Source: Candidatus Nomurabacteria bacterium (GTDB lineage: Bacteria; Patescibacteriota; Patescibacteriia; Magasanikbacterales; UBA922). Taken from it: 64,000 bases of DNA. The notes below the pieces were generated by a model, which saw only the letters and a list, made by a program, of their open reading frames with translations, was not told where the DNA came from and ran no database searches. Within the stretch, counting starts at the first letter, position 1. The number at the start of each line of letters is the position of its first letter. The DNA lies in the NCBI GenBank assembly GCA_020632445.1, contig JACKFN010000001.1, forward strand, positions 75,975 to 139,974, given 5' to 3'. Position numbers and translations under genes: made by a program. Below, piece by piece: positions 37,900 through 64,000 of this stretch.

Positions 37900-38041
37900 T
37901 ACAATGCTCGGCGGGTGGGCGCTGCGCTATATGAACTCGGCACTTCGTGTCCTCTTGGGAAAACCTTCGGGTTTTCCCAACCTTTCCTCTAAATGTAAGG
38001 GGACCCCCCTTACCATCCCCCGTTCAAATCCCACCCTAATC

Positions 38042-38066
38042 AAAAAAAGCCCAAAGGGCTTTTTTA
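38042..38066. terminator. Bidirectional terminator hairpin immediately 3' of the intron-containing tRNA
   Basis: AAAAAAAGCCCaaaGGGCTTTTTT. Confidence 0.65.
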
Positions 38067-38071
38067 TCTGC

Positions 38072-38444
38072 TCGGCGGGTGGGATTTGAACCCACGACCA
38101 ATTGGTTACACGTTCTCCCCCATTTTCATAAGGGCGTGGACTATATCATCACCCGCGAATACCAGATCTTGCCTGGACGCTAGGGTGCAAGGCGCTTCGC
38201 CTCCCAAGGCATAAAGCCCTGAAAGACTACTCCCGTACAGTTTCTCGAACGAATCGAGATCAACATGGGATAGTCTCTGAACCTTTCCAGATTATCATTT
38301 ATTCGATTCTCTGGACTTGGCTGCTGATTACCCGTCAGATTTCTCTGGTGTGGGCTTCCAGCAATTCACCTTGTTTTGCACCTAAGAATTACTTCTTAGG
38401 GCTGCAATTTACAGCCAACTGCTCTACCACTGAGCTACCGCCGA
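38072..38444 (-). tRNA. tRNA (probably Asn, anticodon GUU) interrupted in the anticodon loop by a ~302-nt group-I-like intron
   Basis: 5' exon (38411-38444, minus strand): TCGGCGG-TA-GCTCAGTGGTAGAGC-A-GTTGG-CTGT. 3' exon (38072-38108): TAA-CCAAT-TGGTC-GTGGGTTCAAATCCCAC-CCGCCGA-G. The halves restore a complete cloverleaf with a 7-bp acceptor stem pairing across the gap. The intron (38109..38410) starts after a U that closes a P1-like helix (exon GGCUGU paired with downstream GCAGCC, ending in a U.G wobble). The intron ends in G. Confidence 0.6.
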
Positions 38445-48746: not shown

Positions 48747-51355
48747 ATCTGTTGTCTTCTTTGCTTGGTTAAATAAAGCATTTTAATAAATTCAATAACA
48801 ATGATATTTACCACTCCCATAAAACACAAAATAATCCAATCTTGCAGAGAAAGCGGCACCAGGTGCAGCAAATTAGCAACATGCGGAATATATATTGCCG
48901 CGAGCAGAAGACCAAAACTGACAATTCTGGCAATATTGAGGTACATATTATCGAGGTGAAAAACCTCCCAAACGTAGTAACGCATGCTTCTGATGGAAAA
49001 TATATAGAAGAATGAAAGTGCCCCGAGTCCTGCAAACACCATGGTTCTCGCATAAGCAATTTCAAAACCAACATGAGTAAGATACGCAAACAAAGCAAAT
49101 AGCAATCCAGAAGAAAAAATTGTTACGGCTATGGCCATCGCCTTCATCTCTGAATCAAATATATTTGTGTCTTTTTTTCGAGGTGGATCAGTCATGTTTT
49201 CCTTGTCGCCCTTATCAAACGCAAGTGCCATGGTTGGAAACGTCTCCTGTATGATGTTGGTCCAAAGTATTTGTGCTGGCAAGAGTGCAAGCGGCAGACC
49301 AGATACAATGCTTGCTATGATAAGCAAAACTTCAGTAAAACTCCCACTAAGCAAGTATAATATTACCTTCTTGAGATTTTGGTAAATTCTTCGCCCCTCC
49401 GACACCGCAGCCACAATGGTAGAAAAACTGTCATCAAGCAAAACCATGTCAGCAGTTTCCTTAGCAACATCTGTACCTGAACCTACCGCAACACCTATAT
49501 CGGCACCTTTAAGCGCAGGGGCGTCGTTGACACCATCACCGGTCATCGCCACTACTTCACCTGTTTTTTGTAGTGCTTGTACAATGCGTACTTTATGCCT
49601 TGGCTCAACTCTGGCAAAAACATGGAAATTTCCAATTTTCTCCTCTAACTCTTGGTCTGACATAGCATCGAGCTGCTTACCTTCACAAATGTTCACGGCT
49701 TGATGCTCTATCCCAAGCTGCTGCGCAATATGGACAGCCGTACGCATATGATCTCCTGTTATCATAATAACCCTTATCCCCGCATTCTGAGCAGTCGCAA
49801 GTGTGCTTTTCACGTCGCTACGAAGCGGATCTTCAATAACTGCCAAACCGATGCACTCGCACTCTTTTACATCATCTTCAATGCGTGATGAGCCGGTAGC
49901 TTTCTTTGCAAATGCCAAAATGCGATATCCTTGTTGTGCATATTTTTGAGCAGCGTCAAATAAAACTTTGGTTCTCTCGTTTTGTATACATCGCTCCATC
50001 ACTCTCTCTGGAGCACCTTTAAGATACAGCATGTTTTCTTTTTCCCCCTTTATAAGGGTAAACATACATTTCTTCGCACTTGAAAATGGTACCTCATCAA
50101 GACGGAGTGACGACTTTCGCAGTGCCTCAACGTCAACTCCACGTATCTGCGCTGCATGAATAAGAGCAATTTCTGTCGTGTCTCCAACAAAACGCCAGTC
50201 AGTCTCATCGGCTCTAGGGTTTTCCAAGCTTGCATTACTGCAAAGAATTCCGGCATTAATAATATCGGTATCTTGATCGATAGTTTTTCCTGTTTCATCA
50301 ATATAATAAGCAACACGCATTTTTGCCTGTGTGAGGGTGCCTGTTTTATCTGTACAAATAACGCTCACACTCCCAAGTGTTTCCGCCGCCAATAAACGTC
50401 GCACGAGGGCTTTACGTTTGAGGATTCTTTGCATTCCTATTGCCAAAATAACAGTAAGGGAAATGGCTAACCCTTCTGGAATGGCTGCCACCGCGATAGC
50501 GATTGCTGTTTCAAACAACAAAAAAATTGAATAGTTCACACTCGGCAAAAGTTGTCCAAGAACAAGGATACTTATAGCGACTCCAACCACAATTATTCCA
50601 ATAGTTTTGCTCAGGCGCGTAAGCTGTATCTGTAATGGTGTTTGATCATCGTTGGTGGATTGTACGAGTTGTGCAATTTTTCCAAGTTCTGTGTGAACCC
50701 CTGTTGCTGTAACTACTACCTGCGCCTCCCCTGCTGTGGCTGTTGTCCCACGAAAAACCATATTGTGCATATCCCCTATACTTACTTCACCAGAAATAGC
50801 TTCTACTGTTTTTTCAGATGGTTCAGACTCTCCAGTCAAAACCGATTCATCTACAAAAAATACTTTTGAGTCAACAACTCGTCCGTCGACAGGAACCTTA
50901 TCACCCGATGAAAGAAAAAGTATATCACCTGGTACGACCAATTCGGATGGAATTGACTTTTTTACGCCATCACGCAAAACCACAGCTGTGAGTTTTACCA
51001 TTGACTGGAGCTTTTTGAGAGACTCATTCGCTTTAAATTCTTGAAAAAAACCAATGGTGATATTTAAAAAAACCGTTACAAATATAATGACAGCATCGGC
51101 GAACTCATGTAAGACAAAACTTACAACCCCAGCGGCTAAAAGAATTAAAATAAGTGGACTTTTAATCTGGTTCCACAAAAGTTGCAAAATCAAAAAACGA
51201 CTTTCCTTTTTTGGAAGTGCGTTTGCTCCATGCTGCTCGAGACTATGCTGAGCAACTCGGCTATGAAGCCCAATGGTCAATGATGACTTAAAGTGAGCTA
51301 CAATTTCATCGGTTGTCTTTTGGTAGAACTTCATGACTTGACTTTTTGTCACCAT
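48743..51355 (-). CDS. P-type cation-transporting ATPase (type IIA/IIB, Ca2+-ATPase-like)
   Basis: Phosphorylation site ICTDKTGTLT, nucleotide-binding MITGDH, hinge AMTGDGVNDAPALKGADIG. 10 TM segments; 870 aa. Confidence 0.9.
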   Translation of the reverse strand: MVTKSQVMKFYQKTTDEIVAHFKSSLTIGLHSRVAQHSLEQHGANALPKKESRFLILQLLWNQIKSPLILILLAAGVVSFVLHEFADAVIIFVTVFLNITIGFFQEFKANESLKKLQSMVKLTAVVLRDGVKKSIPSELVVPGDILFLSSGDKVPVDGRVVDSKVFFVDESVLTGESEPSEKTVEAISGEVSIGDMHNMVFRGTTATAGEAQVVVTATGVHTELGKIAQLVQSTNDDQTPLQIQLTRLSKTIGIIVVGVAISILVLGQLLPSVNYSIFLLFETAIAIAVAAIPEGLAISLTVILAIGMQRILKRKALVRRLLAAETLGSVSVICTDKTGTLTQAKMRVAYYIDETGKTIDQDTDIINAGILCSNASLENPRADETDWRFVGDTTEIALIHAAQIRGVDVEALRKSSLRLDEVPFSSAKKCMFTLIKGEKENMLYLKGAPERVMERCIQNERTKVLFDAAQKYAQQGYRILAFAKKATGSSRIEDDVKECECIGLAVIEDPLRSDVKSTLATAQNAGIRVIMITGDHMRTAVHIAQQLGIEHQAVNICEGKQLDAMSDQELEEKIGNFHVFARVEPRHKVRIVQALQKTGEVVAMTGDGVNDAPALKGADIGVAVGSGTDVAKETADMVLLDDSFSTIVAAVSEGRRIYQNLKKVILYLLSGSFTEVLLIIASIVSGLPLALLPAQILWTNIIQETFPTMALAFDKGDKENMTDPPRKKDTNIFDSEMKAMAIAVTIFSSGLLFALFAYLTHVGFEIAYARTMVFAGLGALSFFYIFSIRSMRYYVWEVFHLDNMYLNIARIVSFGLLLAAIYIPHVANLLHLVPLSLQDWIILCFMGVVNIIVIEFIKMLYLTKQRRQQI

Positions 51356-51396
51356 TAGTATATCATATTGAGGTCAAAATCAAAGTATCTGTTATG

Positions 51397-51468
51397 ACCC
51401 TGTAGCTCAGCTGGTAGAGCAGCAGCCTTTTAAGCTGACGGTCCTGGGTTCGAGCCCCAGCGGGGTCA
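51397..51468 (+). tRNA. tRNA-Lys (anticodon UUU)
   Basis: GACCCTG-TA-GCTCAGCTGGTAGAGC-A-GCAGC-CTTTTAA-GCTGA-CGGTC-CTGGGTTCGAGCCCCAG-CGGGGTC-A. Confidence 0.85.
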
Positions 51469-51474
51469 CATAAT

Positions 51475-51505
51475 AAAAAACTCCTTATTTTAGAGGAGTT
51501 TTTTT
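51475..51505 (+). terminator. Rho-independent terminator just 3' of tRNA-Lys
   Basis: AAAAAACTCCTtattttaGAGGAGTTTTTTT. It resembles the terminator at the end of each repB copy. Confidence 0.7.
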
Positions 51506-51545
51506 GTAGTTGAGTGCGCCCGTTGTCCACTGTCTCGAACACTGC

Positions 51546-51613
51546 AACAAAAAAATACCGCTTTCACAGTATTCCTCTTTTTCCAACTACTTCTACGTTG
51601 TAAAAATGATTGG
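51546..51613. repeat. repA copy 1 (conserved cassette 3' module; contains the terminator for minus-strand cargo)
   Basis: caacaaaaaaataccgctttcacagtattcctctttttccaactacttctacgttgtaaaaatgattgg. Near-identical copies at 52785..52853 and 54961..55030. On the minus strand it reads CCAATCATTTTTAC...GGAATACTGtgaaagCAGTATTTTTTT, a hairpin followed by a T-tract. Confidence 0.85.
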
Positions 51614-51641
51614 AGTAGTTTGGTGGGGGTGGGTTGTTGGT

Positions 51642-51962
51642 TCAGCGCGGCTTGTACGTCTCCCAGTTCGAGGCGATGAAGCCACTGAGACCGTGACGGT
51701 CGTCGATTCGGCCGTGTACCGCGAAGCGGTCTGCATCACCTGCGACTACACCGCTCGTCCCTTCAGGGACTTCGCAGCCCTCGAAGCTCCATGACCTAGG
51801 ACGGTCAACAGCACGCGCGACCTGCAGGATGTTGACCCTCACGGCTCCACGGTTGGTGTAGATCGTTATGGTCTCTTCCGCACGCATGGAGCGGATTAGA
51901 GCGTCAATGCCGACAGATCCATCACCCTCAATCTCAGCAGTGATGCTTTCTCCCACGATCAT
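51642..51962 (-). CDS. Cargo ORF 1: small GC-rich (~58%) protein of unknown function
   Basis: Composition clearly departs from the flanks. Start placed at MIVGESIT; a GTG three codons downstream has a GGAG RBS and is also possible. The upstream part of the longer track ORF is encoded by the conserved repB leader and is shared with cargo 2 in another frame. Confidence 0.55.
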   Translation of the reverse strand: MIVGESITAEIEGDGSVGIDALIRSMRAEETITIYTNRGAVRVNILQVARAVDRPRSWSFEGCEVPEGTSGVVAGDADRFAVHGRIDDRHGLSGFIASNWETYKPR

Positions 51963-51984
51963 CTCCACGAGCCGTTTGCATCTT

Positions 51985-52220
51985 TGTGGGCTGCTGGCGA
52001 ATGCCTGCAAACCATCCCACGTAGAACGAAATAACATATCACAAAAAAGACCTTTTGTCAAGGCCTTCTTTCTACTATTTACCTAATTTTAAACAAAAAC
52101 AGCTCTATTTTCCTCAAATATCCCTCCCATTTCCACTATCCCCCGCTCCAATGTGTTCCAGCATAAAACCCACTGGCTCACATAATCAGAAAAACCTCTA
52201 AAATTAGAGGTTTTTTGTTC
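51985..52220. repeat. repB copy 1 (~235 bp module). Read on the minus strand: terminator, ~150-nt conserved segment, TTGACA/TATGTT promoter, 47-nt conserved leader
   Basis: ~90% identical to 53548..53786. A partial third copy lies at 57589..57668. The minus strand carries the promoter cTTGACAaaaggtcttttttgtgaTATGTTat and the leader ttcgttctacgtgggatggtttgcaggcattcgccagcagcccacaa. Confidence 0.85.
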
Positions 52221-52231
52221 CGCCGATTTTC

Positions 52232-52735
52232 TTAGAGCTGCACAATCAGCTTATTTATGAGTGGGGAAAAATGATCCTTATAACGATCTTGCAATTCATT
52301 CATTTTCCAATCACTGCCTGTTACAAAACCGCGGCACGTAGCTTCCCCACAACAACGCTCCCAACTTGAATGATATTCAGGATCTGCTTGAAATAATTCA
52401 TAATCTACGGTCAGTTCTTCTCCTACACTTACGGCCCTTTTAGCTACCAATGTATAGGCATCACCCATCCACAGATTTGAGTCACATGAATGATTTACAA
52501 AATACCCAGTGTCTTTTCCTCTTTCCTCTATACTATACAAATCACTATCCCACTGCATGACAAGCAAGCCCTTTTTCTGAAATTCAATAGCACCTTTCTT
52601 GTTAGTATAGTTTCCACCCCAAATAATTACCTTTTCTCCCTCTTTTATATCTTCATGGGCAAATATTCCCTTTCCAGCAATGCCACTATCAAAAACTTTA
52701 ACTTTTGGGTTTTTCCAGTCTTGTTTTTTATCCAT
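52232..52735 (-). CDS. SET-domain protein (putative protein-lysine methyltransferase)
   Basis: SET hallmark FVNHSCDSN (NHSCxPN), ELTVDY (ELxxDY), and post-SET-like Cys cluster CCGEATC. Host-like AT-rich composition. Confidence 0.75.
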   Translation of the reverse strand: MDKKQDWKNPKVKVFDSGIAGKGIFAHEDIKEGEKVIIWGGNYTNKKGAIEFQKKGLLVMQWDSDLYSIEERGKDTGYFVNHSCDSNLWMGDAYTLVAKRAVSVGEELTVDYELFQADPEYHSSWERCCGEATCRGFVTGSDWKMNELQDRYKDHFSPLINKLIVQL

Positions 52736-52784
52736 AATATAAACTGCAACACTCTTAGTTTACCTTAGATAGGCAAAATTTCAA

Positions 52785-52853
52785 GCACAAAAAAATACTG
52801 CTTTCACAGTATTTCTTTTTTTCCAACTATTTCTACGAAGGTAAAAATGATTG
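52785..52853. repeat. repA copy 2
   Basis: aaaaaaatactgctttcacagtatttctttttttccaactatttctacgaaggtaaaaatgattggg. Upstream extension agtttaccttagataggcaaaatttcaagcac is also shared with copy 3. Confidence 0.85.
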
Positions 52854-52925
52854 GGAATTCTTGGGCGCCTGTGGGTGGTCGGCGCCCGTTGGGGGTGTGG
52901 TGGGATGCGCAGCTTCAGCGCGAGG

Positions 52926-53519
52926 TCACTTGACGGTCGCGTGCGTCCGCCAGAACTCCACGCTGCGCGCGTAGGCGTCGCGGTCGAGGGGCTGGCCGCT
53001 GCCGCCCTCCTCGCGACCGAGCGCGTTGCGCATCATGGTGATGGGGGGCATGGGCGACTCGGCCGCCTGGAGCTCCGCGTTGACGCTCACGATGCCCCAG
53101 TTGGCGTCGGGCACGTCGGGCTCGCCCTCGGGGAACTTCTTGGCCTCCGCCTCCAGCGCCTCGCGCGTGTAGAGGACCAGGTCCAGGTGCGTGGCCCGCG
53201 GCGCCTCGACGCCCTCGAGCCAGCGGACCATCACGGGGAGCTCGCCCTCGCGGCGCGCGACGTAGTCGGTGCGCAGCGCGTGGCGGTTCTCGTCCGTGAT
53301 GGGCGCGATGCCCGCGAGGGTGTCCGACTCGTTCACCAGGAAGAGGTGCTTGCAGAACGGGGCGTACCCGTCGACCAGCTCCGCCCCCGCGGCGAGCGCC
53401 TCGTTGGCCAGCTCCACGAGCTGCTCGGGCGTCAAGCCCACGACTCGGGTGCCCGCGAACTCGGGATCGAAGTGGCGGCCCTGGGCGAATCGGGTGATGT
53501 CGATCTCTCGGCTGCTCAT
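52926..53519 (-). CDS. Cargo ORF 2: GC-rich (~68-70%) protein of unknown function (197 aa)
   Basis: Start MSSREIDITRF, preceded by GGAGAAG RBS, just downstream of the conserved repB promoter and leader. Codon usage and GC unlike the host genes. No motif recognised. Confidence 0.6.
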   Translation of the reverse strand: MSSREIDITRFAQGRHFDPEFAGTRVVGLTPEQLVELANEALAAGAELVDGYAPFCKHLFLVNESDTLAGIAPITDENRHALRTDYVARREGELPVMVRWLEGVEAPRATHLDLVLYTREALEAEAKKFPEGEPDVPDANWGIVSVNAELQAAESPMPPITMMRNALGREEGGSGQPLDRDAYARSVEFWRTHATVK

Positions 53520-53547
53520 CGGTTCTTCTCCGAATGAGGTGATGTCC

Positions 53548-53786
53548 TTGTGGGCCGCTGGCGAATGCCTGCAAACCATCCCACGTAGAACGAAGTAATA
53601 TAACACAAAAAAAGCCTCTTGTCAAGGCCTTCTTTCTACTATTTACCTAATTTTAAACAAAAAATGCCATGTTTTTCCTCAAATATCCCTCCCATATACA
53701 CTATCCCACGCTCCACAGTGTTCCAGCATAAACCCCATTGGCTCACATAGTCAGAAAAACCTCTAAATTTAGAGGTTTTTTGTTGT
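53548..53786. repeat. repB copy 2
   Basis: See repB copy 1. Minus-strand promoter cTTGACAagaggctttttttgtgtTATATTact. Confidence 0.85.
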
Positions 53787-53823
53787 TCTTTTTTTGTTAT
53801 TGGTACCTAAGCTGGAACACTTA

Positions 53824-54912
53824 CTACCTCTTATCCATTCTTGGAATTTCTCTTTCTTTCCTCATTTCCGAAAGCCTTTCACTTTCACGAAGTAACTCCC
53901 CTTTTGTTTCACCACGTAAGTTGGAATCTGCCAACATACGCATTTCATCTTTATCGCTGGAACGAGACAGCACGTAATTCGCCTTGATCATAATTTGCTG
54001 AAAGTCAGGCACACATCGCAGCCTTAACCACTCAGAGTTCGGTGGTTCTGTCATCTGATCGGCAAAGAAAACAATAGTATTGGGCGCATATTCTTGTATC
54101 CACTGCACCACCTTACTTTCTGAATTCAGCGGCTGCTCATGTGGTAAATCAAACAAAACTATGGCATCCACAATATCCGCTGCAGCCTTTAATTTGGCTT
54201 GTATAGAATCACTCATTTCAGAACAAACTCCAATAGGCAATATGTCTTTCTCCACGAGAGGATTAAATTCTACCTCCATTCCTTCAGTTTCCTCATAAAG
54301 CTTATCTTCTTCAACAGATATCTCACCTCTATACAATGTAGCAATTGGCTGTTCAGTTACACCATCCATTGCATCAACATCTGAAGCTGAAAACTTTCTT
54401 GTATGCACTGCTCGAAAAAGCTTTCCTGCAAAACAAACAGTTACTTCATTAATAGAAGGAATTTCGTTTCCTGACTGTGCTGCAACTTCAATAGCATCCA
54501 AAAGATTTCGTGGGCCATCTGATTCCTCTTCGACAGCTGGTATCATACTCCCTGTAAAGACTACAGGCCCTTTCAAACCTTGCAATTCATAACTCAATGC
54601 TCCCGCTGAAGGTCCCATGGTATCTGTACCAAAGACAACCACAATTCCGTCATAATTTTGCTGTTCCTTTGATATCCGATCACCCAAAAGTTGATAAAGC
54701 TCAATGTTTGCATCTGATGAATCAATAAACTTGTCGTTCAACTTAAACTCTGACCAATCTACCCGATATAGCAACTCTTCTAGACCTGGTATGTTCTGTT
54801 GTAGCATCTCCATGGATCCAGGCTTTAGACCACCCTTCAGATTCGTAGGCACCATACCAATGGTTCCACCTGTATATAGTACAAGAATCTTTCTTTCGCT
54901 TGCTTGTTTCAT
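53824..54912 (-). CDS. L-asparaginase family protein (type I / GatD-like) with basic C-terminal tail
   Basis: N-terminal ILVLYTGGTIGM motif, GIVVVFGTDTM second motif. 362 aa. Host-like composition. Confidence 0.75.
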   Translation of the reverse strand: MKQASERKILVLYTGGTIGMVPTNLKGGLKPGSMEMLQQNIPGLEELLYRVDWSEFKLNDKFIDSSDANIELYQLLGDRISKEQQNYDGIVVVFGTDTMGPSAGALSYELQGLKGPVVFTGSMIPAVEEESDGPRNLLDAIEVAAQSGNEIPSINEVTVCFAGKLFRAVHTRKFSASDVDAMDGVTEQPIATLYRGEISVEEDKLYEETEGMEVEFNPLVEKDILPIGVCSEMSDSIQAKLKAAADIVDAIVLFDLPHEQPLNSESKVVQWIQEYAPNTIVFFADQMTEPPNSEWLRLRCVPDFQQIMIKANYVLSRSSDKDEMRMLADSNLRGETKGELLRESERLSEMRKEREIPRMDKR

Positions 54913-54960
54913 AGTTTTTAGTCACTATATCCAGTTTACCCTACACAGCTAAAATATCAA

Positions 54961-55030
54961 GTGACAAAAAAATACTGCTTTCACAGTATTTCTTTTTTTC
55001 CAATTATTTCTACATTGTAAAAATGATTAG
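54961..55030. repeat. repA copy 3 (upstream extension from 54933)
   Basis: gtgacaaaaaaatactgctttcacagtatttctttttttccaattatttctacattgtaaaaatgattag. Confidence 0.85.
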
Positions 55031-55075
55031 GAACTTGTCGAGGCTGGGTGGATCAGCCCCTGACGTTGGTAGGTT

Positions 55076-55807
55076 TTAGGTGGGTGGGTTCAGCATGGCA
55101 AGGGCGTTCTTGGCGGCATCCTTGCGAGCTTCTTTTCTGGAGAGCCCAGTTCCGATGGCGTAGAAGGTGCTCCCAACGTAGACCGCTTCCGTATAGGTGC
55201 GCTCATGGTCAGGACCTTCTTCAGAAACAAGGCTGTAGGTAGGAGTTGGCTTCCCAAGCCCCTGAATTTGCTCCTGAAAGATACTCACGAAGTCAGTGTA
55301 ACTACGGTCGAAGATCCTCTGCAGGCGCGGAAGGATCATCTCAAGTACGAACGACTGGGCTGCCATCAGTCCACGATCCTGATAGATGGCACCAACCACT
55401 GCCTCAAGAACATCAGCGAACAACTTGGTCGTCCGCTCTAGATTTCGTACGTCCTTACGTTGCCCGCGAGACATTCGCACGTAGTTGATGATACCCAGCT
55501 CCACGGTCACCTCAGAGAGTGCCCTACCACACACAAGGCCCGAACGAAGCTTGGTAAGTTCACCCTCCGTCTTGTCACTATGGTTTCGAACGAGAAAATC
55601 CGTAACCACGAGCTCAATGACCGCGTCACCAAGAAATTCAAGAAGCTCGTAGTGTCCAAGCTCCCTTGCCGCCCTGTGCTCGTTGACGTAGGAGCGGTGA
55701 GTGAGCGCCTTCAGGAGAAGCTTCCTGTCGTGGAACTCGATGCCAAGGAGTTTACGAAGCTGCGAGAAGTAGTCTTCAGCTCGCATCTTCGTCCACCTCA
55801 TCATCAC
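55076..55807 (-). CDS. rnc: Ribonuclease III (in GC-elevated cargo block 3)
   Basis: RNase III signature HRSYVNEH...ELLEFLGDAV, catalytic DVLEAVVGAIY, C-terminal dsRBD (LSRKEARKDAAKNALAML). ~55-57% GC against a ~40% background. Confidence 0.8.
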   Translation of the reverse strand: MMMRWTKMRAEDYFSQLRKLLGIEFHDRKLLLKALTHRSYVNEHRAARELGHYELLEFLGDAVIELVVTDFLVRNHSDKTEGELTKLRSGLVCGRALSEVTVELGIINYVRMSRGQRKDVRNLERTTKLFADVLEAVVGAIYQDRGLMAAQSFVLEMILPRLQRIFDRSYTDFVSIFQEQIQGLGKPTPTYSLVSEEGPDHERTYTEAVYVGSTFYAIGTGLSRKEARKDAAKNALAMLNPPT

Positions 55808-57380
55808 TCAGATCGGGTCGATTGACCTGCTCCCATCGGACGTTGAGGTCGCACCGAATTTCGAAGAGGTCCTTCTTGAACTCTTCGTCCTCCCGAGCGA
55901 GCTCGAGAGCCTCGGACTTCGCACGCTTGAACCACGCCACGCTCCTACGGCACTCCCGCGCCAGGATCGGGTACTGGGGATCCCAATGACCACCAGTGTA
56001 GCCGAGGGACAACAGTACGTATGCAAGCATCGCTCTAGATACGACAGCTGAAACCCTGCGCCCCTCCATCTCGTTGGTACTGACTCCGTAGTAGAGACAG
56101 ACTTCTTCCATGATGAGGCGTGCTGACAGGGCCCTCCTGTGATCGATGGGCCTACGAGGCTTCTCGGGAAGCACCTGGACAGAAGATGCCCCCACCTTAC
56201 GCGGCTTGGCCTTCGGAGTCGGAACATCAGCGATGAACCCACCGATTTCCGCTTCGTCGTCCATGTCATCTGGCCCCTCTGTCTCTTCAGCGAACAGAGA
56301 TTCCAAAAGACCCGAGCTACGAAGCTTCTTAATGGCGGCAGCCTCACGTTGGCGAATTCTCTCACTTGTCACGCCGAAGGTGCTACCAATCTCCGTGAGG
56401 GTCCTTTGGCCCTTACCATCGAGGCCAAAACGCATCATGATAACTCGCCGTTCTACCTCAATGAGCCCCACCTCGTCGAATAGCTTCCTGATGGCTAAAC
56501 GCGCGAAGACACGATCCTCGAGACTGCTCTTGTCAACATCCCAAGGGGAACCAACTTGTGGCTGAAGACCACCTTCGCCTTCTGCGTCGAGTGACAGGGC
56601 ATCTTCGACACGGGGGCCATCCTCACCGCTTTTATCCCTACCGAACGCATTGTGGATCTCAAGAACTCGAGAACGCTGCCACCTAACTGCAGAGAGAACG
56701 TTTGCCAGCTCATTTCCCTTTGGATCCCAACCCAACATCACTGCCACCTCTTCGCCCGTAGGCCAGACACCGTGCTCCTTCCTGAATACACGTTGAGCGT
56801 TCACGAACTGAAAGAGGGAGGACCAGAGGTGAACGGGAACCCGAACGAGCCCAGAGTTGTAGACGGCACGAGTTACCTTCTGACGAATCCAGTGGTAGGC
56901 GTAGGTGCTGAACTGGTGCCCCTTGTCAGGATCGAACTTTCGAGCTGCAGTGAGCATCCCGATAGCTCCCTCTTGGGCGAAGTCTTCCAGGTCGTATGCA
57001 GGATCGAACTCAGGGTTCTCCACCAGATACCTGCACCTCCTGGTGACGAAACGCCACACGAGCCGCATATTCTCCTCAAAAACCCCCTCGAGGGCTTCGG
57101 CGTCACCACCGAGGTAATGCACCACATCGTTCGTGAGCCTGGTGCCTCCACTGATACCACCGCCACTATACCGCTTCTCTGGAATCGTATCACCCTTCAG
57201 AACGAGCCCGTACTCAGCGAGCTTCTTACGGACGAACCCCAGACGCCGCCTGGTGATTCCATTCCGCTTCGCACCGTCGAGAGTCTCGTTGGCCAGATCC
57301 CCCAGCGTGTGATACCCCATCTGCTTGAAGTCCTGGACCTGCTTCGGCCTGAACCCTGCGTCGGCAAGGCTCAGCTTCAT
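55776..57380 (-). CDS. Sigma-70-family-like multidomain DNA-binding protein (cargo block 3) with extra N- and C-terminal HTH-like domains
   Basis: Region 2-like STYAYHWIRQKVTRAVYNSGLVRVPVHLW. Region 4-like LTEIGSTFGVTSERIRQREAAAIKKLR. N-terminus resembles an RNAP alpha-CTD HhH (LADAGFRPKQVQDFKQMGYHTLGDL...GITRRRLGFVRKKLAEYGL). C-terminus resembles DnaA domain IV (EVCLYYGVSTNEMEGRRVSAVVSRAMLAYVLLSLGYTGG). Start chosen at MKLSLAD. The terminal-domain identities are weak. Confidence 0.55.
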   Translation of the reverse strand: MKLSLADAGFRPKQVQDFKQMGYHTLGDLANETLDGAKRNGITRRRLGFVRKKLAEYGLVLKGDTIPEKRYSGGGISGGTRLTNDVVHYLGGDAEALEGVFEENMRLVWRFVTRRCRYLVENPEFDPAYDLEDFAQEGAIGMLTAARKFDPDKGHQFSTYAYHWIRQKVTRAVYNSGLVRVPVHLWSSLFQFVNAQRVFRKEHGVWPTGEEVAVMLGWDPKGNELANVLSAVRWQRSRVLEIHNAFGRDKSGEDGPRVEDALSLDAEGEGGLQPQVGSPWDVDKSSLEDRVFARLAIRKLFDEVGLIEVERRVIMMRFGLDGKGQRTLTEIGSTFGVTSERIRQREAAAIKKLRSSGLLESLFAEETEGPDDMDDEAEIGGFIADVPTPKAKPRKVGASSVQVLPEKPRRPIDHRRALSARLIMEEVCLYYGVSTNEMEGRRVSAVVSRAMLAYVLLSLGYTGGHWDPQYPILARECRRSVAWFKRAKSEALELAREDEEFKKDLFEIRCDLNVRWEQVNRPDLSDDEVDEDAS

Positions 57381-57588
57381 CGCTGTTTGCTTATCTCGCA
57401 CTCTCTTGACCTTTCATCCTTAGTATCCACTGAGTTGAAGACAACGAAAAGTGCTACATTTCAAAGAACTCCACATTCATGAGTGGTAATTCACCATAGC
57501 TTAAAGTTATGAAAAAGTCAATATTTTTCTTCTAATCTAAGTGCAAAAAACGCTTAATTTACTGGTAACCACTACAAAATTACATAAT

Positions 57589-57668
57589 CCTTGCTCCAAA
57601 GTGTTCCAGCATAGACTCCACTGGCTCACAGTTTTAAAAACTCCCTATTTTAGAAACATTTTTTTCTT
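57589..57668. repeat. repB partial copy 3 (only the terminator and the first ~60 nt of the conserved segment)
   Basis: ccttgctccaaagtgttccagcatagactccactggctcacagttttaaaaactccctattttagaaacattttttt aligns to the right-hand end of repB copies 1 and 2. Confidence 0.7.
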
Positions 57669-57735
57669 AATTCTTGACTCACAATAATTATCACGTTACA
57701 TTTATATACAGCGTCAGAATATTTCACATTTTTAT

Positions 57736-58194
57736 ATGAATAAGGCTTCATGCCTGGTTTGCTCTCGTATAGAAAGCATTCATAGTAATAAAAATCCCTA
57801 TTACGTTACGGAGCTTCCATCAGGATATGTAGTACTTGGTGACCATCAGTTATTTAAGGGATATTCACTTTTGCTTCTGAAAAATCATGTCCAAGAGCTT
57901 CATGAACTCATTGACAACGACCGAAGACAGTTTCTCGAAGATATGAGCCTACTTGGAAAAGCAATCAATAATGCTTTTTCCCCCGAAAAAATAAACTACG
58001 AACTTCTAGGAAACTCAGCAAATCACTTACACTGGCATATTTTTCCAAGACATAAGAATGATCCTCGGCCACAAGGACCTGTTTGGGCAATAGACAAAGC
58101 GATAAGATATAGCGAAGAATATATTCCCAAGACAAAAACACTTCAAGATCTAAAAAATGCTCTTCTTTCTGAAATAAACAAGCTTAAAAGCTGA
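57736..58194 (+). CDS. HIT (histidine triad) family hydrolase
   Basis: Histidine triad HLHWHIFPR (HxHxHxx). ~150 aa. Confidence 0.8.
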   Translation: MNKASCLVCSRIESIHSNKNPYYVTELPSGYVVLGDHQLFKGYSLLLLKNHVQELHELIDNDRRQFLEDMSLLGKAINNAFSPEKINYELLGNSANHLHWHIFPRHKNDPRPQGPVWAIDKAIRYSEEYIPKTKTLQDLKNALLSEINKLKS

Positions 58195-58259
58195 CTTCGT
58201 AAAAAAACTTCCCTACAGGGAAGTTTTTTTGTTTTTTGCCAACACTTCAAATGGTACTC

Positions 58260-59663
58260 CTAACTTCCCATTTCGACAGAATTTATTATCTCGTCTAACA
58301 CTCGCTCCGGCTTAGATGGGCTGTTTTGGCTATAATTACCGACAAAAAGATACCAACCCTTATCATTTTTTGTTACATAAACTTCCTTTGTCTTGTACTG
58401 GCTTTCACCAATACCCGTCCCAGGCTCAACGATAAGCAATGCGTAGCGTCCAAGACTCTCATTTTCATGAAAAACCACATCAGAATCATCAGTTATACCA
58501 TATACTTCTCTATACTCTTTTACAATGTCCTCGAGCGTTGCAGCTTTCATTTCGTTGAAATATCCAGCCGATTCTGATGAAGCCTCACCATTATCTGACA
58601 ACCTATCAAATATTTGATCAACTTCGTCATAATTGAAGAAAATAGTTTCATATGACACCGTACTGTTTTCCAAAGTCTGATGGCTAGGCCAAAATACAAT
58701 TCTTGTTCCAAACAAACTTTCAAAATTAGGAACAAATGCAAAATTGAAATCTCTTGGAAACTGAAATGTCAAACCATATTTAGGTTCAATATGCGTAAAA
58801 TAATCATCATTATAATTGGTTTTGTTTAACCTTTCCACCTCCTGCGATACATCAATCGTATATAAATCACCCGCTGACCGTATTGGTTGTCCTATTGGCA
58901 GGAAAACAAAAGGATCGACCATATTTACCTCCAGGGTTACACCTGGTTCCACAATGGTGACAGGATTACTGTCAATTTCTAAAATTCTATCCATTCTAAA
59001 ACCAAGATCAGCAAAAACGTCCGCATCGACAATATGGCGAAGCACTTTTCTCCTCGGATCATCTCTGTCAGGTTCAATTCTATACACTTTTGGATCATTC
59101 TTCTTCTTGACGAGAGAAAAATATGGTTGAGAAAAAACACCAACTCCATTAAAGAAGCCAACTTCAGAGGTATCTATTCGTATAGACTTACCTGTTTGGT
59201 ACTTATCCAACATACGCTGATCAACATCTTCTACCCAATCCCACTTATACCCAAGTTGCTGATATGCTGAGGAGCTTTCTACCCAATGTTTTTCTTTTCC
59301 AAGGACAACATATATCTTCGGGTCATTGGTAGTCTTTACTACAGCACCGTATCGAGGATCAAATAAAGGACCATATGGGAGAAAACCCAATTGATCATCC
59401 GGTACATTATTCAGACTCTCTTGGGTAACCTGTTGCACTTCACTCCATGATTCAAAGTACGTGAAGTAAATTTTCGAATTTTTAAACGCTCTTTTCGTAC
59501 AATTCTCGGTAACATACCAAACGGATGAGGATTGGCTACTCTTATACGCTTTTTGCTCCTGCAATGGACATCCTATTGCATCTGCTGGGGCAAAAAGTAG
59601 CAGAGAAAACAAAGCAAGCGGAAGGAAACTAAAAAATTTCTTCATAGTGTGATTTAAAATCAT
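58260..59663 (-). CDS. Secreted protein; N-terminal domain paralogous to the C-terminal domain of the ORF at 21270..22916
   Basis: Signal peptide. The first ~230 mature residues are collinear with the other secreted protein (CPL..KAYKS, KRAF.NS..FTYF.SW.EVQ, DPK.Y, DP.VYR.EP, RHI, LG.R.DRILE.D). Confidence 0.6.
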   Translation of the reverse strand: MILNHTMKKFFSFLPLALFSLLLFAPADAIGCPLQEQKAYKSSQSSSVWYVTENCTKRAFKNSKIYFTYFESWSEVQQVTQESLNNVPDDQLGFLPYGPLFDPRYGAVVKTTNDPKIYVVLGKEKHWVESSSAYQQLGYKWDWVEDVDQRMLDKYQTGKSIRIDTSEVGFFNGVGVFSQPYFSLVKKKNDPKVYRIEPDRDDPRRKVLRHIVDADVFADLGFRMDRILEIDSNPVTIVEPGVTLEVNMVDPFVFLPIGQPIRSAGDLYTIDVSQEVERLNKTNYNDDYFTHIEPKYGLTFQFPRDFNFAFVPNFESLFGTRIVFWPSHQTLENSTVSYETIFFNYDEVDQIFDRLSDNGEASSESAGYFNEMKAATLEDIVKEYREVYGITDDSDVVFHENESLGRYALLIVEPGTGIGESQYKTKEVYVTKNDKGWYLFVGNYSQNSPSKPERVLDEIINSVEMGS

Positions 59664-59694
59664 TTAATTAACATGTTATGCATCTAAATAGCCT

Positions 59695-60279
59695 TTACTC
59701 ATAATCTTCCTCATATGATGACCCTTTTGAACACAAATCTATCAAAAACTTAATATCCTCATCATTCTCAACTCGTAATTCACGAATTTCCTCACCACTA
59801 TCATCGTGAACACTTATTCGCCAACATTCACAAGAATAATCAGGATATATAGTATATTCCAATCCACCATCTGTAAATGTTAGAAAATGATACTCATCAT
59901 AATCAGCATACAAGACACGAGCATCTTGCGCTAATTTTTGCTTAAAATATGGTGACAAATCACTTTGAGATATCTGCTCAATAAACTCCAAATCATCATA
60001 GTCATCAACCCCGTGTGTATATACAACCTCTCCGCTCGAATCAGAAACTGACACCTCCCAATCATCGGATTCGCCCTTTGAAAATACATACGTGTACTCT
60101 CCCACTTGAACCTTCACATTCCTTTCGAACATAACATATGTGTATTCAATTTCCCGCTTCTCTTGAAGAACCGACTTTAATGAATCTGGAATTCTTCCAT
60201 CGACAAATCGCAAAAAACTCGGTTGCCTCGAATCGCTCTGTTCAGCTGCTAATCTTCTCGTTATAAAATCTTCACCCAT
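59695..60279 (-). CDS. Acidic hypothetical protein
   Basis: 194-aa ORF rich in D/E/Y. No motif recognised. Confidence 0.4.
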   Translation of the reverse strand: MGEDFITRRLAAEQSDSRQPSFLRFVDGRIPDSLKSVLQEKREIEYTYVMFERNVKVQVGEYTYVFSKGESDDWEVSVSDSSGEVVYTHGVDDYDDLEFIEQISQSDLSPYFKQKLAQDARVLYADYDEYHFLTFTDGGLEYTIYPDYSCECWRISVHDDSGEEIRELRVENDEDIKFLIDLCSKGSSYEEDYE

Positions 60280-60315
60280 ATTATAAATTCAATTCTATTT
60301 TAGTAAAAATATCTT

Positions 60316-60789
60316 TCACACAAGCGTAGGCCAGATATACTCTACCACAAACCCTCCCCAATACATCGCGATTCCAGAAACCAGACAAAGCAACACCGTC
60401 CAAACAGGTAGCCACTGAATATGTGACTGTTTGTAAAATGCTTCAACGGCAAATATCACCACAAGCACTTCAAGAAGTCCAATAACCGCATCAAGTAATC
60501 CAAATGGAAGTGGTTGTCCAACATAGGGGGCATTCCATATACGTGTCATGTACCACGTCACGGCAACTCCTCCATGCAAAATCATCCCCAGCCAAAACAT
60601 GGGATGCGATTGTTTTTCATGAAAAAAATGTCCCCAGATAAGTTGCGCAGCACCCACGAAAATAAAAAGCATCGCCATAGGACGGACATTCCAATGCAAT
60701 GAGCTCGCAAAAAATAGATGCAGCAGTGCAACCGTTGCGCCGGCATAAAAAGTATACTGGCTATAGCGCTCTTGATGGAAAAGTGGCAT
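60316..60789 (-). CDS. Small membrane protein (4 TM), unknown function
   Basis: Hydrophobic helices, several His and Trp. No motif recognised. Confidence 0.4.
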   Translation of the reverse strand: MPLFHQERYSQYTFYAGATVALLHLFFASSLHWNVRPMAMLFIFVGAAQLIWGHFFHEKQSHPMFWLGMILHGGVAVTWYMTRIWNAPYVGQPLPFGLLDAVIGLLEVLVVIFAVEAFYKQSHIQWLPVWTVLLCLVSGIAMYWGGFVVEYIWPTLV

Positions 60790-60840
60790 ATAAAATAAGA
60801 TGATTTGTCATTTTCTGTAGTATACCCTATTTTCTCCTAC

Positions 60841-60892
60841 AAAAAAACCCGTTTGAGCTTCCTTGCCGTGCAAAGAAACTCAAACGGGTTCC
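60841..60892 (-). terminator. Rho-independent terminator downstream of GC-rich island 4
   Basis: Minus strand: AACCCGTTTGAGtttctttgcacggcaaggaagCTCAAACGGGTTTTTTT. Confidence 0.65.
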
Positions 60893-63094: not shown

Positions 63095-63097
63095 ACG

Positions 63098-63991: not shown

Positions 63992-64000
63992 TCGATAGTC

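What the first reader, a model, noticed from the sequence alone, without database searches (positions are those of the whole stretch)
51985..52220. repB embeds a degenerate copy of the tRNA-Lys 3' end plus terminator, hinting at repeated site-specific integration
The right-hand end of each repB copy resembles the sequence running from the 3' acceptor/T-arm of tRNA-Lys through its terminator.
- tRNA-Lys 3' end plus terminator: CCCAGCGGGGTCACATAATaaaaaactccttattttagaggagttttttt.
- repB copy 1: AAACCCACTGGCTCACATAATcagaaaaacctctaaaattagaggtttttt.
- repB copy 2: ACCCCATTGGCTCACATAGTcagaaaaacctctaaatttagaggtttttt.
- repB copy 3: GACTCCACTGGCTCACAGTTTTAAAAACTCCCTATTTTAGAAACATTTTTTT.

Duplicated, progressively degenerate tRNA 3' ends are the usual scar of tandem integrative elements inserting at a tRNA attB. 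This suggests the modules arrived by successive integrations at tRNA-Lys, using a recombinase supplied in trans.

The ~150 nt between this att-like end and the promoter is ~90% conserved between copies. Its only ORF (about 16 codons, MLEH..) varies non-synonymously, so it looks like an RNA or DNA element rather than a peptide.
Basis: partly seen in the sequence, partly recalled or inferred. Interest (0 to 1): 0.7.

Follow-up and report, generated by a model that had tools for sequence, protein, structure and literature searches.

The report
Gene modules stacked behind tRNA-Lys
In a tiny-genome (CPR, Magasanikbacteria-like) bacterium, several small foreign-looking gene modules sit in a row behind a lysine tRNA gene, each ending in a worn copy of the tRNA's tail and terminator, which is the usual footprint of DNA inserted repeatedly at one tRNA site; here the modules are very small and no insertion enzyme lies nearby.

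Summary
The right end of each repB copy is homologous to the last ~13-22 nt of tRNA-Lys(UUU), its trailer and its terminator.

- A profile built only from repB ends finds the tRNA-Lys tails of three genomes (E 1e-9 to 2e-7) and nothing else that is not an arm of the palindromic terminators.
- In the relative CG11 the match is 51 of 55.

Three comparisons support insertion at the tRNA 3' end.
- In relative A3, tRNA-Lys is joined directly to the terminator and flank that lie behind repB2 in the window.
- Module 1 is young: dS 0.19 between window and CG11, against 1.4-3.0 for neighbouring host genes. It sits at the same site in both.
- A second tRNA in the window, Tyr with a group I intron, has a 164-bp insert bounded by a perfect 15-nt repeat of its 3' end. 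CG11 has the empty site.

The rest of repB is a promoter plus a 5'UTR hairpin, and repA is a 3' hairpin plus a terminator. Both frame GC-rich ORFs.

No recombinase was found in any sequence held. Old host genes (SET, asparaginase) lie between modules, so simple stacking is not the whole history.

Verdict: a tRNA-linked accretion array, a new variant of a known kind.

The parts
51396..51469 (+). tRNA-Lys(UUU), intact. Its last bases plus the first base after it, TCACA (51466-51470), are shared with every repB end.
   Evidence: ARAGORN; Rfam RF00005, 66.9 bits; sequence
51471..51546 (+). Trailer TAAT, terminator T-alpha (51475-51505) and a 41-nt spacer. Read as the element-borne arm (P') of module 1. 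It is 92% conserved with CG11 and absent from A3.
51547..51611 (-). repA1: on the minus strand, a 14-bp A/U-rich hairpin followed by an intrinsic terminator (ATACTG-TGAAAG-CAGTAT plus a T run). It forms the 3' end of the cargo-1 transcript.
51642..51962 (-). Cargo 1: a 106-aa ORF, 59% GC, with no known family. It is under purifying selection (dN/dS 0.39). dS against CG11 is 0.19.
51981..52086 (-). repB1, promoter-proximal half. It holds the promoter TTGACA-17-TATGTT with a TG extension (52061-52033) and a conserved 5'UTR hairpin (GUGGG...GCAGGC-AUUC-GCCAGC...CCCAC) that ends at CCCACAAAGA.
   Evidence: one compensatory G-C/A-U pair against CG11
52087..52182 (+). repB1 'P arm': a conserved C-rich ~70 nt. 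It ends in the invariant hairpin GTGTTCCAG-N11-CTGGCTCAC and in TCACA (52178-52182), which is the degenerate copy of the tRNA-Lys 3' end.
52183..52216 (+). Trailer TAATCAG plus terminator T-beta (CCTCTAAAATTAGAGG). It is bidirectional and also ends the SET gene.
52232..52735 (-). SET-domain gene, 38% GC. An old resident: dS 2.0 against CG11.
52757..52851 (-). repA2 (52787-52851) plus an outward promoter (TTGAAA-16-TAAACT, 52784-52757) that drives SET.
52926..53519 (-). Cargo 2: a DUF3228 protein of 197 aa, in the most GC-rich stretch of the array (60-74% GC in 200-nt windows).
   Evidence: (Pfam E 2.7e-64)
53545..53781 (-). repB2: 5'UTR, promoter (53625-53597, 11 of 12 consensus matches), P arm, TCACA (53743-53747), trailer TAGTCAG and T-beta (53755-53781).
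53782..53823 (+). Flank GTTGTTCTTTTTTTGTTATTGGTACCTAAGCTGGAACAC. In A3 the homologous sequence follows tRNA-Lys and T-beta directly (64 of 70 aligned positions identical including T-beta; 0 of 5000 shuffles reach the score).
53824..54912 (-). Asparaginase-family gene, 41% GC. An old resident: dS 1.4 against CG11.
54933..55028 (-). repA3 (54964-55028) plus an outward promoter (54960-54933) that drives the asparaginase gene.
55076..57401 (-). Cargo 3: a divergent sigma-70-family factor (55776-57401) and RNase III (55076-55807), about 55% GC. It has its own promoter at 57521-57493.
57593..57666 (+). repB3, a partial copy. It keeps the end of the P arm with its hairpin, TCACA (57626-57630), and a decayed T-alpha-like terminator whose stem is broken.
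   Evidence: E 3.7e-14
57736..58194 (+). HIT-family gene at the outer edge of the island. dS against A3 is only 0.51, while backbone genes are saturated.
37905..38083 (-). Independent parallel at a second tRNA. The 3' end of tRNA-Tyr(GUA), which carries a group I intron, is followed by a 164-bp insert (38068-37905). The insert begins with its own terminator and ends in a perfect 15-nt repeat (37919-37905) of the tRNA's last 15 nt (38083-38069). The native terminator follows it, outside this span. CG11 has the empty site.

Best explanation
**What it is.** The 6.2 kb between tRNA-Lys(UUU) and the HIT gene is a tRNA-linked genomic island. It was built largely by site-specific recombination at the extreme 3' end of tRNA-Lys.

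**The recombination site.** The repeated block is the ~70-nt 'P arm' ending in the hairpin GTGTTCCAG-N11-CTGGCTCAC, then TCACA, then a trailer and a terminator. This is the att-type site.
- Left of TCACA lies either the tRNA (attL) or the P arm of the neighbouring element.
- Right of TCACA lies the terminator-first arm of the next element, or the native tRNA flank.
- The crossover can be placed only within TCACA plus at most 4 nt.

**The elements.** They are very small: module 1 is about 0.7 kb and module 2, with SET, about 1.6 kb. They encode no recombinase, so the enzyme must act in trans. This resembles cis-mobilizable elements or decayed islands.

**The remainder of repB, and repA.** These are not att sequence. 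They form a standard low-GC expression scaffold.
- repB supplies a sigma-70-type promoter and a 5'UTR hairpin.
- repA supplies a 3' hairpin and an intrinsic terminator.
- In copies 2 and 3, repA also carries an outward promoter that restores expression of the downstream host gene.
- The scaffold wraps unrelated GC-rich ORFs.

**Shown**
- Homology of the repB end with the tRNA-Lys tail.
- The recombinant-type joints in three genomes.
- The young age of module 1.
- The promoter and terminator motifs.

**Inferred**
- That a recombinase made the joints.
- The order of integration events.
- That later homologous recombination and deletion moved modules relative to SET and asparaginase.
For: **Homology of the repB end with the tRNA-Lys tail**
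- The profile of repB ends finds tRNA-Lys tails in the window, CG11 and A3 (E 1e-9 to 2e-7). Apart from terminator arms it finds nothing else.
- CG11 shows 51 of 55 identity.
- The anchored 13-nt test gives p = 2e-4 to 4e-3.

**Constant breakpoint**
- All eight joints in three genomes share TCACA.
- To its left is either the tRNA or the P arm. To its right are six different continuations, each beginning with a terminator.

**Comparison with A3**
- A3 has tRNA-Lys | CCGTCAG-T-beta-flank.
- The window has P arm | TAGTCAG-T-beta-flank, 64 of 70 aligned positions identical, with 0 of 5000 shuffles reaching the flank score.
- In the window, tRNA-Lys is instead followed by T-alpha, the spacer and repA1.
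- This amounts to a 2.28-kb insertion exactly at the tRNA end.

**Age of module 1**
- Cargo 1 has dS 0.19. The non-coding parts of the module are 87-92% identical between the window and CG11.
- Flanking asparaginase, SET and ATPase have dS 1.4, 2.0 and 3.0.
- HIT and T-beta with its flank are likewise young against A3.

**Locus restriction**
- The core pattern occurs only at the tRNA-Lys locus in the CG11 genome, and in no other of 185,579 species genomes.
- The repA pattern occurs only in that contig among JGI metagenomes.

**Independent parallel**
- tRNA-Tyr in the same window has a 164-bp insert with a perfect 15-nt repeat of the tRNA 3' end and an element-supplied terminator. The site is empty in CG11.

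**Hotspot in the wider clade**
- In more distant Magasanikbacteria the position just 3' of tRNA-Lys also carries insertions: GIY-YIG ORFs followed by pseudo-tRNA fragments.

**Known precedent**
- Successive integrations at a tRNA push older elements inward and leave partial tRNAs behind (tycheposons, bioRxiv 10.1101/2020.12.28.424599).
Against: - No tyrosine or serine recombinase, transposase or HUH enzyme was found in the sequence held. The A3 and CG11 loci carry precomputed Pfam hits.
- Identity with the tRNA body is short and degenerate, and it is not significant without anchoring.
- All five P arms share the same derived sequence. They are therefore copies of one another or of one element family, not independently displaced tRNA ends.
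- Module 2 lies between asparaginase and SET, which are old vertically inherited genes and are adjacent in CG11. That needs an extra deletion or rearrangement, or another insertion mechanism.
- In CG11 the distal copy, not the proximal one, is most like the tRNA tail.
- Only three genomes are informative, and no excision junction was observed.
Confidence: 0.6

Rival explanations
1. The array grew by local duplication and homologous recombination, with no site-specific recombinase. A promoter-terminator scaffold next to tRNA-Lys happened to include a copy of the tRNA trailer and terminator. It was duplicated by unequal crossing-over. Cargo ORFs and whole modules were then swapped between strains by homologous recombination in the conserved flanks, for example after DNA uptake. 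In this view the tRNA-like end is a passenger of the duplicated terminator.
For: - The strongest part of the homology is the trailer and terminator, not the tRNA body.
- The indels between the window and CG11 are bounded by repeats that could recombine. The cargoX-repA unit lies between two repA copies. The CG11 PPDK-like gene lies between two T-core-P-arm copies.
- Within each genome the tRNA trailer and one repB trailer match each other: CATAAT in the window and CACCAT in CG11. Gene conversion would produce this.
- Module 2 sits between two old host genes, away from the tRNA.
- No recombinase was found.
Against: - It does not explain why the same right-hand sequence (T-beta plus flank) is joined to the tRNA in A3 and to a P arm in the window, with the break at TCACA.
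- It does not explain why module 1, about ten times younger than the backbone, sits at the same tRNA in two species whose flanks are only 66-79% identical. That is too diverged for efficient homologous exchange.
- It does not explain the clean 15-nt direct repeat and empty site at tRNA-Tyr.
Confidence: 0.2
2. The conserved block is primarily a regulatory and insulating DNA module. It would be a bidirectional terminator that shields the cargo promoter from read-through, followed by a G-rich operator or UP region (the P arm). It is conserved because it controls the cargo promoters, and its resemblance to the tRNA tail has no bearing on mobility.
For: - In all five copies the block lies between the terminator of an upstream gene and a promoter for the next gene. 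This includes the two partial copies, which precede different promoters.
- In the CG11 partial copy the end of the P arm supplies the -35 hexamer.
- The P arm has an invariant hairpin and repeated TATCCC motifs, with no covariation and no coding signal.
Against: - Regulation does not explain the homology with the tRNA-Lys tail in three genomes, the A3 joint, or the restriction of the family to the tRNA-Lys locus.
- It is compatible with, rather than an alternative to, an att function.
Confidence: 0.1
3. Insertions at this tRNA are driven by a homing-type nuclease, such as the small GIY-YIG proteins that abut tRNA-Lys in related Magasanikbacteria. Double-strand-break repair would copy the neighbouring DNA and duplicate the tRNA end.
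For: - In L011 and L012 a 74-82-aa GIY-YIG ORF starts 1-2 nt after tRNA-Lys. It is followed by a pseudo-tRNA fragment and, in L011, by GC-rich ORFs.
- The window also carries a group I intron in a tRNA.
Against: - No GIY-YIG or other nuclease gene lies in or near the window array, in CG11 or in A3.
- The P arm is not a recognisable pseudo-tRNA.
- Homing does not normally leave ordered direct repeats with a constant breakpoint.
Confidence: 0.05

Closest known systems
Tandem accretion of integrative elements at tRNA or tmRNA 3' ends. Examples: tycheposon islands of Prochlorococcus (bioRxiv 10.1101/2020.12.28.424599); ssrA-linked islands of Dehalococcoides (PMC3146451); CIME/ICE accretion in streptococci (reviewed in PMC5704250).
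   Same: - An intact tRNA sits at one end.
- Same-orientation partial copies of the tRNA 3' end lie between and behind the units.
- Content differs between close relatives.
- Younger units lie next to the tRNA in the window.
- Units without their own integrase exist in those systems too (CIMEs and decayed elements).
   Different: - The units here are far smaller (about 0.7-1.6 kb, essentially one ORF).
- No integrase or integrase remnant is found anywhere in the held sequence.
- The repeat keeps only about 13-22 degenerate nt of the tRNA, but also the trailer and a whole terminator.
- The units share a standard promoter/5'UTR/terminator scaffold around GC-rich ORFs.
- The host is a CPR bacterium.
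Integron gene-cassette arrays
   Same: - A row of single-ORF units of unrelated function, all in one orientation.
- Conserved hairpin-forming boundary sequences.
- Cargo composition differs from that of the host.
   Different: - No intI, attI or Pc was found.
- Each unit has its own promoter and terminator, whereas integron cassettes are typically promoterless.
- The boundary repeat derives from a tRNA tail, not from an attC with R''/L''-L'/R' boxes.
- The array is anchored on a tRNA gene.
Xer-dependent modules (IMEX elements; pdif modules of Acinetobacter plasmids). This comparison rests on my own knowledge.
   Same: Small modules without a recombinase that would rely on a host-encoded tyrosine recombinase acting in trans.
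   Different: - No 11-6-11 dif-like site is present. The GGTCACATAA resemblance to a XerC arm has the wrong spacing to any XerD-like arm, and it is not conserved in CG11, where the sequence is CACACCAT.
- The modules are direct, not alternately inverted.
IS200/IS605-type hairpin-ended elements and their non-autonomous derivatives. This comparison rests on my own knowledge.
   Same: - Hairpins lie just inside both ends of the inserted DNA.
- Insertion is right after a short fixed sequence (TCACA).
   Different: - The two hairpins are unrelated in sequence.
- No TnpA or TnpB gene is present.
- The short sequence is repeated at both ends, and the family is confined to one tRNA locus.

Membership tests
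tRNA-targeting integrative element / genomic island | Lies immediately 3' of an intact tRNA gene | tested here: met
   tRNA-Lys 51396-51469 is intact. Element-type sequence begins at 51471.
tRNA-targeting integrative element / genomic island | A direct repeat of the tRNA 3' end at the distal boundary or boundaries, in the same orientation | tested here: met
   - Three copies, all on the + strand.
- Profile hits to tRNA-Lys tails at E 1e-9 to 2e-7.
- Anchored 13-nt test, p 2e-4 to 4e-3.
- The repeat is degenerate, and the tRNA body alone is not significant without anchoring.
tRNA-targeting integrative element / genomic island | A related genome in which the sequences flanking the insert are joined directly | tested here: met
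   - A3 joins tRNA-Lys directly to the T-beta and flank that lie behind repB2 in the window.
- Caveat: T-beta with its flank is itself unusually conserved, so it may belong to another element.
tRNA-targeting integrative element / genomic island | An element-encoded tyrosine or serine recombinase next to an att site | tested here: not met
   No Phage_integrase, Resolvase or Recombinase hit in the window ORFs scanned, nor in the CG11 or A3 loci. The rest of each genome was not available.
tRNA-targeting integrative element / genomic island | Excision or circular junctions, or population-level presence/absence | not testable with these tools
   Needs read-level data. Only between-species presence/absence was seen.
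Cis-mobilizable element (att sites present, no recombination or transfer genes) | Bounded by att-type repeats, lacks its own integrase, and lies in an array with related elements | tested here: met
   The defining dependence on a helper element's integrase is untested.
Integron | An intI gene with an adjacent attI and Pc promoter | tested here: not met
   No tyrosine recombinase in the window.
Integron | Promoterless cassettes ending in attC sites | tested here: not met
   - Each module has its own strong promoter match and terminator.
- The repA hairpins show no GTTRRRY/RYYYAAC boxes by inspection.
- No attC model was run.
Known structured RNA family for the conserved repB segment | A match to an Rfam covariance model, or covariation support | tested here: not met
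   - Rfam at E up to 1 returned only chance terminator-like hits.
- The P-arm hairpin is invariant, with 0 compensatory pairs.
- The 5'UTR hairpin has a single compensatory pair among three sequences.
Pseudo-tRNA (a full tRNA-Lys duplicate) | Similarity across the D, anticodon and T arms, or a cloverleaf fold | tested here: not met
   ARAGORN finds nothing in repB. The alignment shows no similarity 5' of the last ~15-22 nt.

The most novel reading that the evidence does not exclude
CPR (Magasanikbacteria-like) bacteria may carry an integron-like gene-capture system that has not been described. In this reading, a trans-acting recombinase stacks minimal, integrase-less, single-gene units at the 3' end of tRNA-Lys, and of other tRNAs. 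Each unit is a GC-rich foreign ORF embedded in a standardized low-GC scaffold: an insulating terminator, an att arm, a promoter, a 5'UTR hairpin, a 3' hairpin and a terminator. This makes foreign genes immediately expressible. The units would circulate between species.
Probability: 0.25. Interest if true: 0.75.

Novelty: new variant of a known kind. Interest (0 to 1): 0.55.

Why it matters
Mobile elements and routes of gene gain in CPR/Patescibacteria are poorly known. These genomes are tiny and the organisms uncultivated.

This locus shows a tRNA-anchored site where ready-to-express single-gene modules of foreign composition (57-72% GC in a 42% GC genome) accumulate and are exchanged between species.
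- If a trans-acting recombinase is confirmed, the P arm-TCACA-terminator site and the promoter/UTR/terminator scaffold would define a minimal natural gene-delivery cassette for these organisms.
- The site would also give a searchable signature for finding more such islands.
- If not, it is still a documented case of a hypervariable tRNA-linked island in a CPR genome. That is an ordinary kind of feature in an unusual host.

Tried and rejected
- **Known RNA family in repB or repA.** The Rfam E-value search of 50000-64000 and the gathering search of the whole window found none.
- **P arm as a full pseudo-tRNA**, or as a relative of the pseudo-tRNA behind the GIY-YIG gene in L011. The alignment shows no similarity 5' of the last ~15-22 nt, and ARAGORN is negative.
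- **The MLEH mini-ORF as a peptide.** It has no SD, variable sites fall 7/7/5 by codon position, and it is truncated in copy 3.
- **Integron, IS200/IS605 and Xer/dif readings.** Defining features are absent (see the membership test).
- **Phage origin.** Exact patterns for the P arm, the UTR and repA gave 0 hits in IMG/VR. PHROGs hit only the generic sigma and RNase III families.
- **Relocation of the PPDK-like gene** between tRNA-Thr (window) and the tRNA-Lys island (CG11). Rejected: the two proteins are only 39% identical, so they are paralogues, and no tRNA-Thr repeat exists.
- **Searching for more family members.**
  - Only the window genome and CG11 carry the repeats.
  - Cargo 1 has no other homologue.
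  - The nearest DUF3228 relative (75% identity, L006) lies in a different context without these repeats or a tRNA.
  - Profile searches of all held loci found no further copies.
- **Recombinase search by phmmer.** This is a weak test.
- **A unique order of events** could not be reconstructed. The positions of SET and asparagin­ase, and the trailer types (CATAAT/CATAGT against CACCAT/CACCGT), fit several histories.
Full report
**1. Setting**

The window comes from a CPR bacterium.
- Cargo and ATPase proteins match, at 100% identity, an NCBI MAG named 'Candidatus Nomurabacteria bacterium' with locus tags H6758_.
- The closest genomes I could recover are Candidatus Magasanikbacteria.
  - CG11 (PCWN01000007.1 = Ga0210057_1000012 = an ENA contig; loci L002-L005 and L010).
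  - An unnamed relative, 'A3' (Logan contigs L007-L009).
- The genome is about 42% GC.

**2. Anatomy**

tRNA-Lys(UUU) lies at 51396-51469 on the + strand. All the genes behind it are on the - strand. Reading outward from the tRNA:

| Step | Feature | Coordinates |
|---|---|---|
| 1 | Trailer TAAT and terminator T-alpha | 51471-51505 |
| 2 | 41-nt spacer | 51506-51546 |
| 3 | repA1 | 51547-51611 |
| 4 | Cargo 1 (106 aa, 59% GC) | 51642-51962 |
| 5 | repB1 | 51981-52234 |
| 6 | SET-domain gene | 52232-52735 |
| 7 | repA2 | 52787-52851 |
| 8 | Cargo 2 (DUF3228; up to 74% GC in 200-nt windows) | 52926-53519 |
| 9 | repB2 | 53545-53799 |
| 10 | Asparaginase gene | 53824-54912 |
| 11 | repA3 | 54964-55028 |
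| 12 | RNase III plus a divergent sigma factor (about 55% GC) | 55076-57401 |
| 13 | Partial repB3 | 57593-57666 |
| 14 | HIT gene (+ strand) | 57736-58194 |

In gene orientation, repB reads in this order:
- a bidirectional terminator;
- GTGAGCCAGTGGGG..., the reverse complement of the tRNA-like end;
- a conserved G-rich ~70 nt, which I call the P arm;
- an A/T-rich stretch;
- a strong sigma-70-type promoter, TTGACA-17-TATGTT or TATATT with a TG extension (10-11 of 12 consensus matches);
- a 5'UTR of about 50 nt with a hairpin that ends at CCCACAA(A/G)GA. The copies diverge after this point.

repA is a 14-bp A/U-rich hairpin followed by an intrinsic terminator. In copies 2 and 3 it continues into an outward promoter for SET and for asparaginase.

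**3. Checking the observation**

The quoted strings are correct. Within the window, the three best non-self matches to the tRNA-Lys tail are the three repB ends.

The similarity is carried mainly by TCACA, the trailer and the terminator.
- The tRNA body alone is not significant in a free local alignment.
- Anchored next to the homologous trailer, the last 13 nt are significant, with p = 2e-4 to 4e-3.
- A profile built only from four repB ends retrieves the tRNA-Lys tails of the window, CG11 and A3. E-values are 9.7e-10, 7.4e-10 and 1.7e-7, and the alignments start about 22 nt inside the tRNA.
- In CG11, the tRNA tail and the repB end next to SET are 51 of 55 identical.

The extent is the last ~13-22 nt of the tRNA, then the trailer, then the terminator. 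It is not a recognisable T-arm. The P arm is not a pseudo-tRNA.

**4. Evidence on mechanism**

(a) *Constant breakpoint.* Eight joints in three genomes all contain TCACA. To its left is the tRNA or a P arm. To its right are six different continuations that all begin with a terminator.

(b) *The A3 joint.*
- In A3, tRNA-Lys is followed directly by CCGTCAG, terminator T-beta and a 40-nt flank.
- In the window the same T-beta and flank follow the P arm of repB2. They are 64 of 70 aligned positions identical, and 0 of 5000 shuffles reach the flank score.
- The tRNA in the window is followed by T-alpha, the spacer and repA1 instead.
- Relative to A3, 2.28 kb is therefore inserted exactly at the tRNA 3' end. 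It is bounded by the tRNA end on one side and its degenerate copy on the other.

(c) *Age.*
- Cargo 1 has dS 0.19 (dN/dS 0.39) between the window and CG11.
- The module's non-coding parts are 87-92% identical.
- The neighbouring asparaginase, SET and ATPase genes have dS 1.4, 2.0 and 3.0.
- The module thus reached, or was exchanged between, two long-separated species, and it sits at the same tRNA in both.
- HIT (dS 0.51) and T-beta with its flank (91% identity) are also young between the window and A3, whereas ATPase, Translin and MurG are saturated. The whole stretch from tRNA-Lys to HIT behaves as an exchangeable island.

(d) *Locus restriction.*
- The core pattern occurs in only one of 185,579 species genomes (CG11). 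It occurs there only twice, both times at tRNA-Lys.
- The repA pattern gives only that contig in the JGI metagenomes.
- IMG/VR gives nothing.

(e) *An independent parallel in the same window.*
- A tRNA-Tyr(GUA) is interrupted by a group I intron (Rfam, 94.9 bits).
- It is followed by a 164-bp insert that starts with its own terminator and ends in a perfect 15-nt repeat of the tRNA 3' end. The native terminator comes after the repeat.
- CG11 has the uninterrupted site.
- The architecture matches tRNA-Lys: the element supplies a new terminator, and the native one is displaced behind the repeat.

(f) *Hotspot in the wider clade.* In more distant Magasanikbacteria (L011, L012), the position 1-2 nt after tRNA-Lys is occupied by a small GIY-YIG ORF followed by pseudo-tRNA fragments. 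L011 also has GC-rich ORFs nearby. This spot is a recurrent insertion point in the clade.

**5. What does not fit a simple stacking model**

- No recombinase gene was found in the window, in 23.5 kb of CG11 or in 20 kb of A3.
- All P arms share the same derived sequence. They belong to one element family (attP-type arms), and are not independently displaced tRNA ends.
- SET and asparaginase are old residents, and in CG11 they are adjacent, 22 nt apart. Module 2, which lies between them in the window, needs either a deletion in CG11 or a further rearrangement or insertion.
- In CG11 the distal att copy is the one most like the tRNA tail. That suggests either integration of a composite unit or gene conversion.
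- The indels between the genomes are bounded by repeats that could also recombine homologously.

I therefore commit to site-specific integration at the tRNA-Lys 3' end by a trans-acting recombinase as the primary process (confidence 0.6). Homologous recombination and deletion would have reshaped the array afterwards.

**6. The conserved ~150 nt**

- The P arm has one invariant hairpin, GTGTTCCAG-N11-CTGGCTCAC, that abuts TCACA. It has no compensatory changes and no Rfam match.
- The MLEH ORF shows no coding signature.
- The segment always lies between an upstream terminator and a downstream promoter. This holds even in the two partial copies, which precede different promoters.
- The best reading is a DNA element: an att arm, possibly doubling as an operator or UP region. 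It does not look like a structured RNA or a peptide.
- The 5'UTR hairpin has one compensatory pair, G-C against A-U, between the window and CG11. That is suggestive only.

**7. Comparison with known systems**

- The closest known kind is tandem accretion of integrative elements at tRNA or tmRNA 3' ends. Examples are tycheposon islands, ssrA islands of Dehalococcoides and CIME/ICE accretion.
- The differences are the minute size of the units, the absence of any linked integrase, an att repeat that keeps the whole terminator, and the shared expression scaffold around GC-rich ORFs.
- It resembles integrons in logic but fails their defining features.

**8. Verdict**

The integration reading is the best one, but the enzyme and the excision products are unobserved.
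- Novelty: a new variant of a known kind, in an under-studied lineage.
- Interest: moderate, 0.55.

Noticed in passing
window 37905-38443 (- strand): - A tRNA-Tyr(GUA) is split by a group I intron at 38117-38422 (Rfam RF00028, 94.9 bits). ARAGORN misses it.
- Directly behind it lies a 164-bp insert (38068-37905). The insert starts with its own terminator and ends in a perfect 15-nt repeat (37919-37905) of the tRNA's last 15 nt, CCCACCCGCCGAGCA (38083-38069).
- CG11 has the empty site.
   Followed up: yes
window 60850-61640; L007 6350-7200: - A fourth GC-rich ORF (69% GC, 134 aa, no known family) has its own promoter, a long structured 5'UTR and a GC-rich 3' tail. It lies between a membrane-protein gene and murG.
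- A3 has the same scaffold at the same position, but with a very different GC-rich ORF.
   Followed up: partly
window 51642-57401; L006 4393-12149; L002 3650-4370; L011 8373-9173: - GC-rich ORFs (55-72% GC) sit as islands in low-GC (36-43%) CPR-type contigs, each with low-GC promoter and terminator flanks.
- This recurs in several unrelated contigs.
- The source of the GC-rich genes, and why they stay GC-rich, is unexplained.
   Followed up: partly
L011 9400-9841; L012 9560-9944: In more distant Magasanikbacteria a 74-82-aa GIY-YIG ORF starts 1-2 nt after tRNA-Lys. It is followed by a pseudo-tRNA-like fragment with an odd CCCCGC...GCGGGG arm.
   Followed up: partly
L007 9176-9290: In A3, an insert of about 105 nt lies at the 5' end of tRNA-Lys. 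It is flanked by a 15-nt repeat of the tRNA 5' end (ATGACCCTGTAGCTC).
   Followed up: no
window 53718-53730 and 53811-53823: - A 13-nt inverted repeat, GTGTTCCAGC(A/T)TA, brackets the TCACA-T-beta segment of repB2.
- The outer arm is conserved in A3, next to its tRNA-Lys terminator.
- The profile hit on the reverse strand has E 4e-4. Its meaning is unknown.
   Followed up: partly
window 52145-52158; L003 2490-2503: - The 14-mer GAACACATTGGAGC of the window P arm recurs exactly in the leader of the CG11 'cargoX' gene, just upstream of its start codon.
- A related GCTGGAACAC...GAGGGGGA lies before the start of the GC-rich ORF at about 61500.
- This may be a recombination joint or a chance match.
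   Followed up: no
window 139-1881 and 8237-9616 (- strand): Two TrwB/TraG/VirD4-like coupling-protein ATPases flank the dnaG and rpoD genes. This may be a conjugation- or DNA-transfer-related gene set.
   Followed up: no
window 55776-57401 (- strand): - The cargo sigma factor is a second, divergent sigma-70-family protein. The housekeeping rpoD is at 3286-4707.
- It has a long C-terminal extension.
- Its best NCBIfam hit, far below the cutoff, is the anti-phage MzaA sigma model.
   Followed up: partly
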